64,000 nucleotides of DNA from a virus, in IMG/VR virus record IMGVR_UViG_3300038465_000158, positions 1 to 64,000 of that record; one strand, 5' to 3'. Numbering within the stretch: position 1 is the first letter of the stretch; each line of letters begins with the position of its first letter. The notes beneath the pieces were generated by a model. The model searched no databases and was not told where the DNA came from. It saw only the letters and a program-made list of their open reading frames with translations. Shown one piece after another: positions 1-17,783 of the stretch. The position numbers were made by a program, and so were the translations under genes.

Positions 1-1
1 C

Positions 2-133
2 GTGGAGGCGTATCTACAACAGGAACTACGCCGACTTCACTCAGCGATTGAATCGCGCGGCCCCCTAAGTGACGAACCGCGAGAAAAAGAAAATCACGAT
101 GGCGCGGCACCCGTACTAGGAGGCGACAAATGA
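2..133 (+). CDS. 3' end of mosaic hypothetical protein (partial)
   Basis: Open frame VEAYLQQELRRLHSAIE...GPLSD...GAAPVLGGDK*; ATGA overlap with next gene; carries linker repeats. Confidence 0.7.
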   Translation: MEAYLQQELRRLHSAIESRGPLSDEPREKENHDGAAPVLGGDK

Positions 134-1059
134 GCGCGTGTAAGCGTTGTGGTGCAACGAGGCTTTCAGAACAGCACTGTCGCGTGTGCAACTGGCCCGA
201 CGAGCCTTTCGCCACCCGCGCTGTGTCACCCGTACCGCCGGCAGCGCCGAACGTTCCAGAAGATGTGAGCGTTGATGCTTGGCGCGAGGACACGGCGAAG
301 AATGCGCTGATTGAGTGCGGCTGGCACGGAACGTGGTGGGCTGAAAAGACCGTGACGTTGCTTCGTGAAGCCGGAGTGTTTGACGCTGACGCCGCATCCC
401 TCCGCGCTCGCCCCCAAGAGCCGGGACTTTCAAAAGAGTGGCTCGAAAGTTTGGTTGATGGTCCGAAATCGTGCATCGACTACGCGGATTATCGGGACAC
501 CCCAGGTGCATACTCATTCGCCAAGGCGGGTAATTTCTGTGATGACTGCGGGAGGTTCTGCACCGAGAAGTATTTGAGCGCGGAACACAAATGCCAGCGG
601 TGCCAGCGCATTGACGAGCCTTGTGAGTTCATGCCAGAGCCGCGAGGGGCGTTTGGGATTGCTCAAGGGTGGTGTCGAACGCACGATGTCGGGTGGATTT
701 GGTGCGAGCACGCGAAAACCGTTTCCGCGCCTCCCGTTGCACCGAGCGTGCGAGAGTGCCCGACGAATCACACGTGTATGGACAATTATGACGAAGAGGG
801 AGAATTAACAAAGATTCTGTGGTCCGATGACGCTATCGGCTATGAGTTCTGCCCCGACTGCGGAACGAATCTTTCAGCACCTTCCGGCCCCCTAAGTGAC
901 CCCGAAGGAGAAATTGCGAAAGAGCACCGTCGTTCATTGGCGCACATCGAAGCCGAGAAAGACCCCGAGCGGCATCTGCGGTGGGTCAACTACGCCGATG
1001 GTCTTCAATTCGCTCTTGACGTTTTGGGCGCGGCACCCGTACTAGGAGGCGAAGAATGA
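130..1059 (+). CDS. Mosaic Cys-rich (Zn-ribbon) hypothetical protein
   Basis: GGAGG SD; several CxxC pairs; four linker peptides shared with neighbours. Confidence 0.8.
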   Translation: MSACKRCGATRLSEQHCRVCNWPDEPFATRAVSPVPPAAPNVPEDVSVDAWREDTAKNALIECGWHGTWWAEKTVTLLREAGVFDADAASLRARPQEPGLSKEWLESLVDGPKSCIDYADYRDTPGAYSFAKAGNFCDDCGRFCTEKYLSAEHKCQRCQRIDEPCEFMPEPRGAFGIAQGWCRTHDVGWIWCEHAKTVSAPPVAPSVRECPTNHTCMDNYDEEGELTKILWSDDAIGYEFCPDCGTNLSAPSGPLSDPEGEIAKEHRRSLAHIEAEKDPERHLRWVNYADGLQFALDVLGAAPVLGGEE

Positions 1060-1262
1060 GCGACAAGTGGAAGAGAATAGCGGACGTTCTCGCTGGGAGA
1101 TTGATGTATCACGATTTCTGCGATCACAATCCACCCGAGGAGGACTGTCCGTTCTGCGATGACGAGGCGGCGATGAAGATATATCGCAAGGCCGGTGGGA
1201 ATGTGGGGCTTCCAGCCGCTCAGGGCAAGATGGTTGGGATAAGAGAATTGAAATTCCCATGA
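1056..1262 (+). CDS. Hypothetical protein
   Basis: GGAGG SD, ATGA overlaps at both ends. Confidence 0.75.
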   Translation: MSDKWKRIADVLAGRLMYHDFCDHNPPEEDCPFCDDEAAMKIYRKAGGNVGLPAAQGKMVGIRELKFP

Positions 1263-1807
1263 CCCCCGATTCCCCCGCTGTGTCACCCGTACCGCCGACA
1301 GCGGAACAGAATCGCGGCGATATGTTTCACAGGCCATATGACAATCAAGGAGAAATGATGGACTCAACGTATCTTGTTCGCGAACTGGTGAGCCTGAAAG
1401 AATCAGGTCCGGGGCACAGCGACCCTCACGAAGAGACACCCCAAGCGTGGCGTGACGGAGTGATGGCCGCAATTGAAGTCGTTCGCGAATCTCTTTCCGC
1501 GCCTCCCGTTGCACCGACCCCCGAACCGGCGATCGACCTCATCTTTCGCTGCTCGTCGTGTGGTGTCGTAGCGCCCGGACTTTTGACGATCGCCCCTTCC
1601 GGTCCCCTGAGTGGGGAAGCACGAGAACTGGCCCCGACCTTCTCAAGGGAAGGGCTGGACGCGCTGATTGTTGAGTGGTTCCCAGTGGCCGACAGCACGC
1701 TCTCGCTGAAAGGATGGGCCATGCGAGCCTCCGCACTCCGCGACTCCATCCTCCAGTCAGCCGAGCCGACGCCCGCGCCCAACATAGAAGGGACCAACAA
1801 TGAGTGA
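1259..1807 (+). CDS. Mosaic hypothetical protein
   Basis: Coupled ORF containing VSPVPPTA, SAPPVAP and APSGPLS linkers. Confidence 0.75.
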   Translation: MTPDSPAVSPVPPTAEQNRGDMFHRPYDNQGEMMDSTYLVRELVSLKESGPGHSDPHEETPQAWRDGVMAAIEVVRESLSAPPVAPTPEPAIDLIFRCSSCGVVAPGLLTIAPSGPLSGEARELAPTFSREGLDALIVEWFPVADSTLSLKGWAMRASALRDSILQSAEPTPAPNIEGTNNE

Positions 1808-2372
1808 AGTTCAAAAGTTCCGCAAGAAGCCGGTAGTGATTGAGGCGGTTCAGTTCGTTGACAGCAAGGAGGGCGTGGCCGATGTGCTGCGGTTTTGTAA
1901 AGACGCGCAAATGAACCAGTTCGAGCGCCTCACGGGCTTGACGATAATGATAAAGACGCTCGAAGGTCAGCACATAGCGAGCGTGGGTGACTGGATAATC
2001 AAAGGCGTCCAAGGCGAATTCTATCCCTGTAAGCCGGACATCTTTGAGCAAACGTACGAGCCTGCCACCCCCGATGTATCACCCGTACCGCCGACAGCGG
2101 AAAAAGGAGAAAATGAAATGTTGACAGTTAGCGCCGTGTGCATGTGTGCGAAGTGCGAAAGTTCAGGTCGCTACGGCCGTTACCGGATGGTCGGTCATTG
2201 CACGAACTGCGGCCAGACCGATATTCTGATGTTGTTCCGTTCGGGCGATGAGGCGCACAATCGCGATTGCCCGACATGCGGTAGTCGGGGTCACGGTACC
2301 TTTGGCGGCGTTCACCCCGACAGGCTCGCCACGCCAGACGAAATCCCAGCAGCAGAACCGAACCCGACATGA
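1800..2372 (+). CDS. Conserved phage protein (FRKKPVVIEA...GDWIIKG..GEFYPCKPDIF) with C-terminal Zn ribbon
   Basis: Widespread phage motif; paralog of 3617..4576. Confidence 0.8.
   Translation: MSEVQKFRKKPVVIEAVQFVDSKEGVADVLRFCKDAQMNQFERLTGLTIMIKTLEGQHIASVGDWIIKGVQGEFYPCKPDIFEQTYEPATPDVSPVPPTAEKGENEMLTVSAVCMCAKCESSGRYGRYRMVGHCTNCGQTDILMLFRSGDEAHNRDCPTCGSRGHGTFGGVHPDRLATPDEIPAAEPNPT
1989..2099 (+). repeat. 111-bp direct repeat, second copy at 3809-3919
   Basis: Identical sequence read in both places (offset 1820). Confidence 0.9.
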
Positions 2373-2418
2373 ACAAAAACGAAACTGCCGCCTCTCTAGC
2401 CGAGCAAAAGGAGCCGAA

Positions 2419-3177
2419 ATGACGAGACTTTACAAATGGATGCTGCCGGACAATCGAACGGCGGTGCAGAACAAAATCTGGCCCGTCAAAGTTGGTGAGT
2501 GGACGGCTAGAGAGACACCGGTTCTCTGCCAATCAGGCTGGCACGGGATGAAAGAAAAGCACGTTCTAAGTCATCTTCCTTCACAAATCGGCGCGTCACT
2601 GTGGGTCGTGGAAACCAGGGGCGCGATTCTCCACGGGGACGACAAGTTCTGCGCCCCGCAGATGAAGCTCGCCTACAAAATCGGAACGACCACCGAGCGG
2701 AACTTGCGACTTTTCGCGGCTGACTGCGCCGAGGACGTGCTGCCGATTTTCTGGAGGGTCCGACCCGATGACGACCGACCCAAGCACGCCATTGAAGTCG
2801 CCCGGCGTTACGCCAACGGCGCGGCCACCGAACAAGAACGGGCTGCTGCGGGGGCTGCTGCGTGGGATGCTGCGTGGGCTGCTGCGAGGGATGCTGCGGG
2901 GGATGCTGCGGGGGATGCTGCGGGGGATGCTGCGGGGGCTGCTGCGGGGGCTGCTGCGTGGGATGCTGCGAGGGCTGCTGCGAGGGATGCTGCGTGGGAT
3001 GCTGCGAGGGCTGCTGCGAGGGATGATGCGTGGGATGCTGCGAGGGCTGCTGCGAGGGATGCTGCGAGGGCTGCTGCGAGGGCTGCTGCGTGGGATGCTG
3101 CGTGGGATGCTGCGAGGGCTGCTGCGAGGGAGTTGTACAGCAACTGGCTCGTGGTTCGGATCGAGAGCGACCGATGA
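2419..3177 (+). CDS. Imm5-like domain protein with AA[RWG][AD] repeats
   Basis: AGGAG SD before ATG 2419; LRLFAADCAE.VLPIF..DDRP..AIE.ARRYANG motif followed by Ala-rich repeat. Confidence 0.75.
   Translation: MTRLYKWMLPDNRTAVQNKIWPVKVGEWTARETPVLCQSGWHGMKEKHVLSHLPSQIGASLWVVETRGAILHGDDKFCAPQMKLAYKIGTTTERNLRLFAADCAEDVLPIFWRVRPDDDRPKHAIEVARRYANGAATEQERAAAGAAAWDAAWAAARDAAGDAAGDAAGDAAGAAAGAAAWDAARAAARDAAWDAARAAARDDAWDAARAAARDAARAAARAAAWDAAWDAARAAARELYSNWLVVRIESDR
2845..3132 (+). repeat. 24 x 12-bp coding tandem repeat GCTGCG(A/T/G)GGG(A/C)T
   Basis: Read directly; 12-bp period. Confidence 0.95.
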
Positions 3178-3620
3178 CTGAAAACCCTCCAGCCTCTCTA
3201 GCCGAGGGGGGCGAACAAGATTTGATTTCACGAAAAGCGGCGATTGAGGCCATGAAAAAATGCGAGCGCGTGGCATACGGTCGAGATAACGAACTCTGGC
3301 GTAATGCAGCAAACATTATATCCGCGTTGCCTCTCGCCGCCCCTTCACGAGCCCCCGAACCACTTTCAGTTACTTTCAGGTGCGCCAAGTGCGGCACCGT
3401 AGCGCCGGGAATAATCAGCGTGGCCCCGAGCGCCCCTACAGGGCTAACGAGGGCAAAGATTGAAGAATTGGCGCGGGCCGTCGTTGTGCGATGGCAGTTC
3501 GCATCTACTGAGCCGAACATGGGCAACTGCACGTCATTCGATGAGGGGTTGAAAGTCGGAACGATGATGTTGACCGACGCGATTCTTGCCGCCGTACCGC
3601 TACGAGAGGAGAGCAAATGA
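3174..3620 (+). CDS. Mosaic hypothetical protein
   Basis: ATGA overlap; PEP..FRC..CG.VAPG module shared with 1259..1807. Confidence 0.75.
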   Translation: MTENPPASLAEGGEQDLISRKAAIEAMKKCERVAYGRDNELWRNAANIISALPLAAPSRAPEPLSVTFRCAKCGTVAPGIISVAPSAPTGLTRAKIEELARAVVVRWQFASTEPNMGNCTSFDEGLKVGTMMLTDAILAAVPLREESK

Positions 3621-4576
3621 GCGACGTTCAAAAGTTCCGCAAGAAGCCGGTAGTGATTGAGGCGATGAAACTCACCCGTGAGAACTACATCGACGTGTAC
3701 CTGTGGATGAGTACATCGTGGGAGGAGCGCAGCGTCTCTCAACTTGTGGATGGAACAGTTGAAATCTATATACGCACGCTTGAAGGAAACATGACGGCAC
3801 GCCAGGGCGACTGGATAATCAAAGGCGTCCAAGGCGAATTCTATCCCTGTAAGCCGGACATCTTTGAGCAAACGTACGAGCCTGCCACCCCCGATGTATC
3901 ACCCGTACCGCCGACAGCGCAGCCGAATTACAAAACTCCGGCGTGGCTCGTTGCTCGAAAGAATGAGATGGACGCGAAGGGCCGACAAGACGACGGGAGC
4001 GTGTGCCCCGAGTCAATGAACGGTGAACACTGCGGCCACTTCTACTACGACTGGGCACCAAAGGACGGAGAGCACCCGAATCACACTGGCCCTCACTGTT
4101 GTTATTGCGACCGTGACCGTGTTTCCGCGCCTCCCGTTGCACCGAGCGAACCTTCGATTTACAGCCACGATGAGAACGCGCTCCCCGACAATGAACTTCC
4201 GGGGATGTGGGAACACGCTGACTACGAAGGTGGACGACTGACGGCGGAAGAATTGCGAGAGTTACACGATTCGGGAAGAATTCCTGAACGAAGACTTCTG
4301 TCTCCGGCACCGAGCGTGGGGGAACTGGAATGGCGTGAAATCGAATGCGAAGAATATGAGCGGCGTCTAAACGGCCACGCTTTCAGGGTGTTCTCATCCT
4401 GCACCGACCCAGACGGCGTGTATGGTCAACGTGGCGTCTACACGGAATGGGGAATCGAAGGCGACGATGACTCGACGCTGAAAAGCGAACTTCTGTATGA
4501 CGAGAATCGACTCCCCACCAAATGCACTCACTGGCAGCGCATCCTTTCGGGGGATGCGGAGGAGGGGGAGCGGTGA
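3617..4576 (+). CDS. Conserved phage protein (FRKKPVVIEA family) with mosaic C-terminus
   Basis: Shares identical 39-bp and 111-bp blocks with 1800..2372. Confidence 0.8.
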   Translation: MSDVQKFRKKPVVIEAMKLTRENYIDVYLWMSTSWEERSVSQLVDGTVEIYIRTLEGNMTARQGDWIIKGVQGEFYPCKPDIFEQTYEPATPDVSPVPPTAQPNYKTPAWLVARKNEMDAKGRQDDGSVCPESMNGEHCGHFYYDWAPKDGEHPNHTGPHCCYCDRDRVSAPPVAPSEPSIYSHDENALPDNELPGMWEHADYEGGRLTAEELRELHDSGRIPERRLLSPAPSVGELEWREIECEEYERRLNGHAFRVFSSCTDPDGVYGQRGVYTEWGIEGDDDSTLKSELLYDENRLPTKCTHWQRILSGDAEEGER

Positions 4577-4965
4577 GCAACCAGAATCGAGATTGGAAGC
4601 GCGAGGCCGAACTTTACAAGGGGATGCGACCTGTAGAGAATGTTGACGAAGCAGCCAGTGTCATCAGAGGACTCGCCCCCATCGTGGCTCACGCAGTCAT
4701 GGACAAAGATTTAGAGCGTGCGGAGTTCTATTTCGGCGTGCTATTCGATGCTGCTGAGCGACTAAAGGGATTTCTGAAACTCTCAACACTTCGGGCAGCA
4801 CAACCGCTGACACGCGAAGGGATTGACGTAATTCTCGACAATCTTTTCGAGCCAGAAGGTGACGACGGCGACTACAAGCCGGAGATACGAGCAGCAGCGA
4901 GAATGGGCGCAGAATGGCTCCGTGACGCTCTTTTGGATTCTCTGGCAGACAAGGAAGCAACGTGA
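4573..4965 (+). CDS. Hypothetical protein
   Basis: GTGA overlap, GGAG SD. Confidence 0.7.
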   Translation: MSNQNRDWKREAELYKGMRPVENVDEAASVIRGLAPIVAHAVMDKDLERAEFYFGVLFDAAERLKGFLKLSTLRAAQPLTREGIDVILDNLFEPEGDDGDYKPEIRAAARMGAEWLRDALLDSLADKEAT

Positions 4966-5237
4966 GAGATTTTCGAGAACTTCTGTGTGAGTCGGCAGTT
5001 CGACAACGCAACTGGGGCAAAGAGGCGCGAATGGTGCTGGCCGTCCGGTTGGAAGTGGCGCGGGGAAAGCGAGTCGCGGTTGTGTGCGCCGACAAGCAAC
5101 AACGCGGAGCAATGCGGAAAAAGTACCCCGACATTGCCAAATGCTTCATCGTTCCTAAGCCCTCGAAGTCACGAATCAACTGGATTGTGGACGACCCATT
5201 ATTTCGTTCTCTGGCAGACAAGGGGAACAATGAGTAA
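4962..5237 (+). CDS. Hypothetical protein
   Basis: GTGA overlap; ends in SLADK, as does the previous gene. Confidence 0.6.
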   Translation: MRDFRELLCESAVRQRNWGKEARMVLAVRLEVARGKRVAVVCADKQQRGAMRKKYPDIAKCFIVPKPSKSRINWIVDDPLFRSLADKGNNE

Positions 5238-5469
5238 ATGCATCCCTGCGCGGGAAGTTTGCATTACATTGAAACATAAGACGTCTGGAAAACGACGTTT
5301 ATGTTCAGTCATCGTGCCGCATTATTGGACGAAAAGCCAACTCCTAAAGTATTGTCGACAAGAACATCCAAACGAGACAGTCGTCATTGAAGTTTGGATG
5401 TCGACTAGCAAAGCAGAAAATAGATGGGAGACACGACTGTGGCTAGTCAACCCAAAAGAACTCGTGTGA
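5230..5469 (+). CDS. Hypothetical protein
   Basis: Coupled ORF from ATG 5230. Confidence 0.6.
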   Translation: MSKCIPAREVCITLKHKTSGKRRLCSVIVPHYWTKSQLLKYCRQEHPNETVVIEVWMSTSKAENRWETRLWLVNPKELV

Positions 5470-5660
5470 TCACTCTCCTTCGCGCACACGGCAGTCAATG
5501 GGGACCTGGCAAGGTTCATCGCTATCGCGAGACAGTCGAGTTCGGCGACGTTCCATTCTGTACGAATAAACCAATTCATTGCGAGCGAATCAAAGGCACG
5601 AAGAAAGATGTTACGTGCAAAAAGTGCAAAAAGAGTTTGCACGTGAGTGTACAAAGATGA
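5466..5660 (+). CDS. Small Cys-rich protein (VTCKKC)
   Basis: GTGA overlap; Zn-binding motif. Confidence 0.6.
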   Translation: MITLLRAHGSQWGPGKVHRYRETVEFGDVPFCTNKPIHCERIKGTKKDVTCKKCKKSLHVSVQR

Positions 5661-5666
5661 TATAGT
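5637..5666 (+). promoter_or_regulatory. sigma70/SigA-type promoter for the RNA island
   Basis: TTGCAC-18-TATAGT with TGn extension. Confidence 0.65.
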
Positions 5667-17762: not shown

Positions 17763-17783
17763 TGTGCATAAAGATGATATAAT
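17763..17783 (+). promoter_or_regulatory. Extended -10 promoter
   Basis: TGTGCATAAAGATGATATAAT. Confidence 0.7.

What the first reader, a model, noticed from the sequence alone, without database searches (positions are those of the whole stretch)
59..5223. Ordered in-frame linker repeats suggest combinatorial domain shuffling of accessory genes
Unrelated cargo segments are joined by near-identical DNA linkers that occur in the same order. A (VSPVPPTA, 28 bp): 219, 1276, 2072, 3892. B (SAPPVAP, 24-28 bp): 721, 1494, 4121. C (GPLSD, 15 bp): 59, 886, degenerate near 1595. D (GAAPVLGG plus the next gene's GGAGG SD, 26 bp): 101, 1027. E (SLADK, 17 bp): 4938, 5207. C and D are 27 nt apart in one gene and 126 nt apart in the next. 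Synonymous sites are largely conserved, pointing to DNA-level recombination joints rather than peptide selection. Inference: a frame-preserving cassette-exchange system generating chimeric small proteins, reminiscent of lambdoid ea22/eaa mosaicism but unusually regular.
Basis: partly seen in the sequence, partly recalled or inferred. Interest (0 to 1): 0.75.

Follow-up and report, generated by a model that had tools for sequence, protein, structure and literature searches.

The report
Shared in-frame linkers shuffle phage protein modules
The first operon of an uncultured 97-kb phage encodes small multi-module proteins joined by short proline-rich linkers whose DNA is identical between unrelated neighbours and between distant phages, and related phages carry other module combinations cut at these linkers, a clear multi-linker case of the known cut-and-paste evolution of phage accessory genes.

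Summary
All five repeat families (A-E) lie at the stated positions, in frame and as direct repeats. They occur only in the first 5.2 kb of the 96,685-bp virus record. I found further linkers: H (393-426), F (4305-4332), T (4541-4567) and a gene-junction repeat (3598-3625).

The same 22-34-nt words occur with 100% identity in three other phage lineages, next to sequence that does not align. One of these lineages shares only about 47% amino-acid identity with this phage in other genes.

Metagenomic proteins show module swaps at the linkers:
- The g7 frame carries g1's zinc module between A and B.
- g1's zinc ribbon is joined through A to g3's cargo.
- At least five different cargos sit between A and B.
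- Five different left partners and six different right partners meet at B.

So domain shuffling at the linkers is supported. A dedicated "cassette-exchange system" is not: the block has no recombinase, the linkers share no core site, and no copy is inverted. The linker order is conserved, which fits in-register homologous recombination on short identical DNA. The phage encodes a PD-(D/E)XK nuclease next to a Sak4-like AAA_24 protein.

This scan has reported the same phenomenon before on other phage DNA.

The parts
2..133 (+). g0: 3' end of the first gene of the operon. Its tail consists of linker C (58-73), a 9-aa spacer and linker D (101-126).
   Evidence: The same C-plus-spacer word is 93% identical in G001, where linker F follows it instead of D. 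The 5' part probably lies at the other end of the record as a wHTH-like ORF, but a direct join is out of frame; this is inference.
130..1059 (+). g1, 309 aa: Zn ribbon - A (219-246) - module - H (393-426) - module - Zn module - B (721-748) - Zn ribbon - C (885-900) - helical module - D (1027-1052).
   Evidence: Weak zinc-ribbon Pfam hits. Its modules recur singly in P0001, P0121, P0122, P0123, P0125 and P0145.
1056..1262 (+). g2, 68 aa, a small Cys-containing protein without linkers, ATGA-coupled on both sides.
   Evidence: no family hit.
1259..1807 (+). g3, 182 aa: short leader - A (1276-1303) - cargo - B (1493-1520) - CxxC module - degenerate C (1601-1615) - module.
   Evidence: P0130, P0144 and P0145 keep its A-B cargo but have a different segment after B. 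L293 shows the same g3-g4-g5 order in an independent contig.
1800..2372 (+). g4, 190 aa: PGDYG-like / phrog_419 N-terminal domain - A (2072-2099, the end of a 111-nt repeat at 1989-2099) - Zn-ribbon C-terminus.
   Evidence: phrog_419 E=8e-36.
2419..3177 (+). g5, 252 aa, Imm5-like protein with a 12-nt tandem array (2780-3190). It carries no linker and lies inside the block.
   Evidence: Pfam PF21805 E=6.5e-11, 42.7 bits against a cut-off of 25. Tandem repeat. Homologues in G001 and L374 at 67-71% nucleotide identity.
3174..3620 (+). g6, 148 aa, a diverged paralogue of the g3 B-C module in which linker B has decayed. The g6/g7 gene-junction word lies at 3598-3625.
   Evidence: 55% identity over 27 aa. 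The junction word is 26-28 nt identical at two gene junctions in L374.
3617..4576 (+). g7, 319 aa: PGDYG-like domain - A (3892-3919) - Cys/His module - B (4121-4148) - module - F (4305-4332) - module - tail T (4541-4567).
   Evidence: P0001 is the same frame with g1's Zn module between A and B. P0009 and P0148 reuse its post-B module, F and T. F is 28 nt identical in G001.
4573..4965 (+). g8, 130 aa, with a 51-nt island at 4778-4828 and gene-end word E (4938-4954).
   Evidence: 47% aa identity to the G002/G003 homologue, but the 51-nt island is 96% identical and a 22-nt island is 100% identical.
4962..5237 (+). g9, 91 aa, with gene-end word E (5207-5223) just before the next gene's start.

Best explanation
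The first operon of this phage (g0-g9, high GC, translationally coupled) encodes accessory proteins built as strings of small modules. Many of the modules are zinc ribbons. They are separated by short proline-rich linkers. Each linker is encoded by one fixed DNA word of 22-34 nt, shared by paralogues in this genome and by distantly related phages.

These words are long enough to act as in-frame crossover points for homologous, short-homology recombination. The recombination could be between paralogues, between co-infecting phages, or with prophages. The likely agents are the phage's own annealing/exonuclease functions or host RecA. A crossover inside a linker keeps the reading frame and falls between folded units, so the chimeras are viable. 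Repeated crossovers keep the linker DNA uniform while the modules diverge or are replaced.

Gene-end words (D, E, the g6/g7 junction, T) do the same job at gene borders and also carry the next gene's ribosome-binding site.

Shown: the repeats, their frame, their DNA identity across lineages, and recombinant architectures in relatives.
Inferred: the recombination mechanism and which enzymes carry it out.
For: 1. DNA identity. Exact in-frame direct repeats are confined to 1-5223, with identity ending sharply at the linker edges.

2. The same words in other phages, 100% identical, with flanks that do not align:
- A, C and F in G001.
- B in G002/G003.
- H, 34 nt, in L374.
- Elsewhere G003 shares only about 47% aa identity with this phage, and the Imm5-like genes are 67-71% identical in DNA.

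3. 93 of 96 silent-site codon comparisons are identical.

4. Recombinant architectures in relatives:
- P0001: g7 N-terminus - A - g1 Zn module - B - g7 C-terminus.
- P0145: g1 Zn ribbon - A - g3 cargo - B - new Zn knuckle.
- P0148: A - new cargo - B - g7 module - F - T.
- P0121: B fused to F through their shared 12-nt GCACCGAGCGTG.
- P0130: g3 cargo - B - new cargo.

5. Several of these junctions occur on many contigs: 7 for P0121, 9 for P0130 and 16 for P0144.

6. Most cargo segments have no detectable similarity to each other.

7. Linker order is conserved: A comes first wherever other linkers are present, H precedes C in 9 of 9 proteins that have both, B precedes F in 5 of 5.

8. More distant proteins carry diverged versions of the linkers, such as LRAEPPT three times in P0136. 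This is the pattern of concerted evolution within lineages.

9. Linker-only mini-ORFs look like emptied sites: a 29-aa ORF in G001 and two 22-aa ORFs in L374.

10. The phage encodes a PD-(D/E)XK nuclease (E=4e-20) next to an AAA_24, Sak4-type protein (E=8e-12).

11. Established knowledge: phage recombinases recombine short and diverged homologies (De Paepe 2014, PMC3945230). In T-even adhesins, exchanges occur within or near the conserved motifs (Trojet 2011, PMC3157838).
Against: - No recombination event was observed.
For these, breakpoints are placed at protein level only.
- Words of 22-34 nt are at the lower limit for efficient homologous exchange.
- The linkers are also conserved peptides in about 20 proteins, so selection on the peptide may contribute.
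- P0002 (g7 N-terminus + g4 C-terminus) spans the 111-nt repeat and could be an assembly chimera.
- Relatives are few in IMG/VR: one to three lineages per linker.
- The single-sequence AlphaFold model of g1 was too poor (pLDDT 38) to show that the linkers are inter-domain coils.
Confidence: 0.65

Rival explanations
1. The linkers are functional peptides: docking motifs, flexible spacers of fixed length, or cleavage sites that release the modules from polyproteins. Their DNA identity would reflect only recent common descent. The shuffling would then be a by-product of ordinary illegitimate recombination filtered by selection.
For: The peptides APSGPLSDPE, SLRARPQEPG, VSPVPPT and SAPPVAPS recur in about 20 different proteins. 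C is exact in P0123, although the adjoining Zn ribbon is only about 40% identical to g1. In the model of g1 the linkers fall in coil regions, but that model is weak.
Against: Silent sites are identical in 93 of 96 comparisons, and between phages whose shared genes are about 47% identical in protein. P0122 keeps the Zn ribbon at 66-75% identity but has lost both flanking linkers. P0136 uses a different linker dialect. Eight different words would need eight partners or one very tolerant one.
Confidence: 0.14
2. A dedicated, programmed diversification system. A phage or host enzyme recognises the linker words and moves cassettes in frame, as in integrons or shufflons, or by pilin-type gene conversion from silent paralogues.
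For: The layout is unusually regular. Several linkers lie in a fixed order, paralogous genes in the same operon could act as donors, and linker-only mini-ORFs look like empty sites.
Against: No integrase, invertase, reverse transcriptase or nuclease domain is found in g0-g10. The words share no common core, have no inverted repeats and occur in no inverted copies. An independent contig has the identical g3-g4-g5 arrangement, so there is no sign of high-frequency switching.
Confidence: 0.08
3. The words are DNA or RNA signals kept for regulation, for example ribosome-binding or re-initiation sites, RNase sites or operator sites, and they merely happen to be translated.
For: D, E, T and the g6/g7 junction contain the Shine-Dalgarno sequence and the start of the next gene. 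B contains CCTCCC, complementary to the GGAGG sites. A C-like word lies just before a possible start in L378.
Against: A, B, C, H and F lie deep inside ORFs with no start codon after them. They have no common sequence or hairpin. Promoter and terminator scans of the block are at background level. This reading does not explain why module swaps fall at these words.
Confidence: 0.05
4. The repeats, or the variant architectures, are assembly chimeras from mixed populations.
For: Repeats of 22-111 nt can mislead short-read assemblers. P0002 spans the 111-nt repeat and is known from only two short contigs.
Against: L293 reproduces g3-g4-g5 from another sample. P0121, P0130 and P0144 junctions occur on 7, 9 and 16 contigs, up to 79 kb long. 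The A-RE-Zn-module joint of P0001 and P0121 does not exist in the window phage, so it cannot be a chimera of its parts. The linkers sit in four lineages with otherwise unrelated flanks.
Confidence: 0.03

Closest known systems
Motif-mediated module shuffling in T-even tail-fibre and adhesin genes: gp37 His boxes and gp38 glycine-rich motifs between hypervariable segments (Tetart 1996/1998 as cited in Trojet 2011, PMC3157838)
   Same: Short conserved in-frame motifs alternate with variable segments in a fixed order. Natural and laboratory exchanges occur within or near the conserved motifs.
   Different: In gp38 the motifs form one domain's structural core in a virion protein, and the segments are loops of a single fold. 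Here the words are proline-rich spacers between separate, mostly unrelated small domains in non-structural first-operon genes. The same words are spread over several genes of one genome.
Mosaic Ea22 and other exo-xis early proteins of lambda and Stx phages (PMC10834534)
   Same: These are early, non-essential accessory proteins with a shared frame and unrelated 'portable' C-terminal domains.
   Different: There is no sequence relationship: no Ead/Ea22 hit in Pfam. For Ea22 a set of fixed DNA linker words has not been described in that paper. Here at least eight words lie in series.
Botstein-type linker or boundary sequences and PeSL cassettes at gene borders (Botstein 1980 and Arbiol 2010, both cited in PMC3157838)
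   Same: D, E, T and the g6/g7 junction are short conserved words at gene borders, shared between phages with different genes on either side.
   Different: PeSLs carry a promoter and a stem-loop. These words carry only an SD and start codon and are translated as the tail of the upstream protein. Linkers A, B, C, H and F lie inside genes.
C-terminal cassette replacement in polymorphic toxins at conserved pre-toxin motifs such as VENN in CdiA or the Rhs core end (my own knowledge, not checked here)
   Same: A short conserved coding word marks the joint where unrelated C-terminal modules are exchanged by homologous recombination. An Imm5-like gene lies in the block.
   Different: No toxin domain was detected. 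There are several joints per protein instead of one. The setting is a phage early operon, not a secretion locus.

Membership tests
Motif-mediated in-frame module shuffling (T-even adhesin type) | Short conserved coding motifs alternate with variable or unrelated segments. | tested here: met
Motif-mediated in-frame module shuffling (T-even adhesin type) | Natural relatives differ by segment exchanges whose borders fall in the motifs. | tested here: met
   At protein level for P0001, P0121, P0130, P0145 and P0148. At DNA level for G001, G002/G003 and L374.
Motif-mediated in-frame module shuffling (T-even adhesin type) | Exchange at the motifs is seen in phage crosses. | not testable with these tools
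   The phage is uncultured and its host is unknown.
Lambda Ea22 / Ead family | Homology to the Ead/Ea22 coiled-coil region (IPR025153). | tested here: not met
   No such Pfam or PHROG hit for g0-g10.
Site-specific cassette systems (integron, shufflon) | A dedicated recombinase gene next to the cassettes. | tested here: not met
   No integrase or invertase domain in the block. The rest of the genome was only partly scanned.
Site-specific cassette systems (integron, shufflon) | One conserved core site, palindromic or present in inverted copies. | tested here: not met
   At least eight unrelated words, all direct, with no inverted copies.
PeSL / gene-boundary cassettes | A conserved word at gene borders carrying a promoter and a stem-loop. 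| tested here: not met
   D, E and the g6/g7 junction lie at gene borders but carry only an SD and start codon. Promoter and terminator scans are at background level.
PGDYG-like / phrog_419 domain (N-termini of g4 and g7) | A significant profile match. | tested here: met
   phrog_419 E=8e-36 and 8e-34. Pfam PGDYG is only sub-threshold.
Imm5-like putative immunity protein (g5) | A Pfam PF21805 match above the gathering score. | tested here: met
   42.7 bits against a cut-off of 25.
Phage Sak4-type annealase with partner exonuclease (proposed agent of the exchanges) | AAA_24 and PD-(D/E)XK genes lying side by side. | tested here: met
   L376:8974-9894 PDDEXK_1 E=4e-20; L376:9897-10598 AAA_24 E=8e-12. 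Their activity and their role in the exchanges were not tested.

The most novel reading that the evidence does not exclude
The linker words are a built-in recombination grammar. The phage's own annealase/exonuclease pair would use the paralogous genes of the operon, and co-infecting relatives, as donor cassettes. This would produce in-frame chimeric accessory proteins at a high, selected rate during infection. It would be a population-level diversity generator for host-takeover or anti-defence proteins, analogous to pilin-type gene conversion but operating in a virus.
Probability: 0.12. Interest if true: 0.85.

Novelty: new variant of a known kind. Interest (0 to 1): 0.55.

Why it matters
Botstein's old proposal that phages recombine at short conserved linker sequences has few clean examples, and most of those lie between genes or in tail fibres. 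This block is an unusually legible case inside genes. About eight DNA-fixed, frame-keeping words lie in a conserved order. They are shared across phages that are otherwise near saturation divergence, and many natural recombinants are cut at them.

If exchange really depends on the DNA words, that would explain how phage accessory proteins explore domain combinations so quickly. It would also suggest a search rule for finding module borders and fast-evolving host-interaction genes in uncultured phages: short words with fixed silent sites between unrelated flanks.

The same pattern has turned up repeatedly in this scan on other phage DNA. It may therefore be a general and under-described feature of phage early genes.

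Tried and rejected
Three B-like hits with silent changes (L177, L191, L194) first looked like evidence for peptide selection. They proved to be the reverse strand of tail-collar-type genes (GATGGAET), so I rejected them.
2. Genome-collection scans for A and B gave only chance matches in GC-rich bacteria. They found no prophage and no host.
3. The one metagenome scan found only the same phage again.
4. The search for related loci with P0001 returned only distant PGDYG-domain homologues.
The DNA of the key recombinant proteins could not be examined.
6. A single-sequence AlphaFold model of g1 was uninformative (pLDDT 38).
7. PADLOC gave no hits.
8. Promoter and terminator scans were at background level.
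9. Joining the two record ends directly does not put g0 in frame with the last ORF.
10. A degenerate scan for linker C found one diverged copy, in L378, lying outside any long ORF. I did not follow it up.
11. One search was a mistyped test call.


Full report
**Context**

The window is the first 64 kb of a 96,685-bp IMG/VR virus record that CheckV rates as complete. Positions 1-5660 hold one run of + strand genes joined by ATGA or GTGA overlaps. I call them g0-g11. They are followed by a tRNA-Asp. This block has 58% G+C, against about 49% for the rest of the genome.

Family hits in the block:
- g4 and g7 have a PGDYG-like N-terminal domain (phrog_419, E=8e-36 and 8e-34).
- g5 is an Imm5-like protein (PF21805, 42.7 bits against a cut-off of 25).
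- g1 and g4 give weak zinc-ribbon hits.
- Nothing resembles a recombinase.

**The observation**

- A: 219/1276/2072/3892
- B: 721/1493/4121
- C: 58/885, plus a degenerate copy at 1601
- D: 101/1027
- E: 4938/5207

A whole-genome list of exact repeats shows that these words occur only in the first 5.2 kb. All copies are direct, and none occurs in inverted orientation. All are read in one frame and give VSPVPPT/A, SAPPVAP, GPLSD, GAAPVLGG and SLADK. Identity ends abruptly at the edges of each word.

Of 96 codon comparisons with the same amino acid, 93 use the same codon. About 43% would be expected from the block's codon usage. The copies in relatives were found by exact DNA search, which biases that part of the count. 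Copies inside the window found by peptide alone show the same result, except the degenerate C in g3.

Comparison with relatives revealed more words:
- H (SLRARPQEPG, 393-426)
- F (APSVGELEW, 4305-4332)
- T (ILSGDAEEG, 4541-4567)
- a g6/g7 junction word (3598-3625)

**Two classes of word**

- A, B, C, H and F lie inside genes between segments.
- D, E, T and the g6/g7 junction lie at gene ends. They include the next gene's Shine-Dalgarno sequence and start codon, so part of their conservation has an ordinary cause.

**Relatives at DNA level**

Exact-word scans of IMG/VR found three other lineages:
- G001 has A (32 nt), C (29 nt), C plus its spacer (56 nt at 93%) and F (28 nt), all otherwise 100% identical. 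Between them lies sequence that does not align with the window.
- G002/G003 have B (28 nt) and islands of 51 and 22 nt in a g8 homologue that is only 47% identical in protein.
- L374 has H (34 nt) inside a protein whose sequence after H is unrelated to g1. It also has the g6/g7 junction word twice.

Outside this block, G003 shares only distant homologues with the window phage, for example 47% over 117 aa. The Imm5-like genes are 67-71% identical in DNA. Words of 28-34 nt with no difference therefore cannot be vertical remnants.

An independent metagenome contig (L293) carries g3-g4-g5 in the same order and nearly identical. The window's arrangement is therefore not an assembly accident.

**Relatives at protein level**

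Searches with g7, g1, g3 and P0128 and a cluster look-up gave about 20 proteins built from the same vocabulary. The main recombinants are:

| Protein | Architecture |
|---|---|
| P0001 | g7 N-terminal domain - A - g1's Zn module (100% identical) - B - rest of g7 (100%) |
| P0145 | g1's N-terminal Zn ribbon - A - g3's A-B cargo - B - a new Zn knuckle |
| P0130, P0144 | g3 cargo - B - the same new Zn knuckle; found on 9 and 16 contigs, up to 79 kb |
| P0148 | short leader - A - new cargo - B - g7's post-B module - F - new cargo - T |
| P0121, P0141, P0142 | new N-terminus - A - Zn module - B fused directly to F |

- In P0121 the B-F fusion runs through the 12 nt (GCACCGAGCGTG) that the two words share in the window. 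It occurs on 7 or more contigs.
- P0123-P0128, P0139 and P0140 are H-cargo-C proteins. Their cargos show no detectable similarity to each other.

Counting partners:
- A joins 5 different left partners to 6 different right partners.
- B joins 5 left partners to 6 right partners.
- At least five different cargos sit between A and B. One has no Cys residues, and two are Cys-rich with different Cys spacing.

**Order and dialects**

Linker order is conserved:
- A is the first linker in every protein that has it.
- H precedes C in 9 of 9 proteins that have both.
- B precedes F in 5 of 5.
- C precedes F in 2 of 2.

One possible exception is an H-like word after a C-type word in P0131. A conserved order is what in-register homologous exchange among collinear genes would preserve. 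A free cassette system would not need it.

More distant proteins use related but different linkers. P0136 has LRAEPPT three times and AAPPVPLSDP. P0122 has ISAP and LAPPVG around a Zn ribbon that is still 66-75% identical to g1's. Linkers are therefore uniform within a lineage pool and diverge between pools, which is the pattern of concerted evolution. This argues against a strictly conserved peptide function.

Linker-only mini-ORFs look like sites from which the cargo has been lost. They are a 29-aa ORF in G001 (C + spacer + F) and two 22-aa ORFs in L374.

**Mechanism**

The best-supported reading is homologous exchange on short identical DNA that happens to encode tolerant inter-module spacers. 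The words (22-34 nt) are near the minimum length at which homologous recombination is known to work. That figure is my own knowledge.

Phage recombinases are known to use short and diverged homologies (PMC3945230). The phage encodes a PD-(D/E)XK nuclease next to an AAA_24, Sak4-type protein. Their role in these exchanges is inference.

A dedicated site-specific system is unlikely: there is no recombinase in the block, no shared core and no inverted repeats.

Pure peptide selection does not explain the fixed silent sites. Still, the peptides may well matter as spacers or cleavage sites, and I could not test that.

Assembly chimerism is excluded for most junctions by their recurrence on many contigs. 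It remains possible for P0002, which spans the 111-nt g4/g7 repeat.

**Comparison with known systems**

- Closest mechanistic parallel: the conserved-motif / variable-segment design of T-even adhesins, where exchanges fall in the motifs (PMC3157838).
- Closest biological parallel: the mosaic Ea22-type early proteins (PMC10834534). The block is not homologous to Ea22.
- The broad survey of phage protein mosaicism (PMC10684548) contains no occurrence of 'linker' or 'breakpoint' in its main text.
- This scan has already reported very similar DNA-fixed linkers in other phages. Those notes are unchecked, but they suggest the pattern is widespread.

I therefore rate this a new variant of a known kind.

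**Limits**

- The host and the function of the modules remain unknown.
- The structure model was uninformative.

Noticed in passing
window 2780-3190: The Imm5-like gene g5 contains about 24-30 tandem 12-nt units encoding four-residue A/D/W/R repeats. Homologues in G001 and L374 (two copies in L374) have arrays of different length.
   Followed up: partly
window 1-5223 compared with the rest: The linker block has 58% G+C against about 49% for the rest of the phage. The three other linker-bearing lineages have 57-60% overall, which suggests the block was imported from a higher-GC phage pool.
   Followed up: partly
L377:12200-12685 and window 1-133: The record ends in a wHTH-like ORF that runs off the end, and the record begins with the tail of g0. 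A direct join is out of frame, so a few bases may be missing at the ends. An AT-rich region with repeated AAATAAAG words precedes that ORF.
   Followed up: partly
L376:11937-14494 and L376:3014-3886: Weak, sub-threshold hits to amino acid:DNA transferase (E=1e-4) and 5-hmdU DNA kinase (E=1e-5), plus a thymidylate-synthase-like gene. These hint that the phage DNA carries hypermodified thymidine.
   Followed up: no
L376:6090-6686: A GIY-YIG / NUMOD3 homing-endonuclease gene lies directly after the family A DNA polymerase gene.
   Followed up: no
window 5651-5664 and 17770-17783; genome 80581 and 87244: The word AAAGATGATATAAT recurs four times (the 5651 copy is a 14-nt variant, ACAAAGATGATATA, shared with 87244). 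It looks like this phage's own promoter -10 region. One copy lies right after the linker operon, before the tRNA-Asp.
   Followed up: no
L005:6886-6975; L374:2431-2503 and 2733-2804: Relatives carry mini-ORFs of 22-29 aa made only of linker words and translationally coupled to the next gene. They may be emptied cassette sites or coupling devices.
   Followed up: partly
window 4778-4828: A 51-nt island is 96% identical to G002/G003 inside g8, whose protein is otherwise 47% identical. It encodes LRAAQPLTREGID, which resembles linker H, so this may be one more linker.
   Followed up: partly
window 12473 and genome 71103: An exact 22-nt AT-rich repeat (ATGCATAAATATGTTATAATGT) occurs at two distant places and looks promoter-like.
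   Followed up: no
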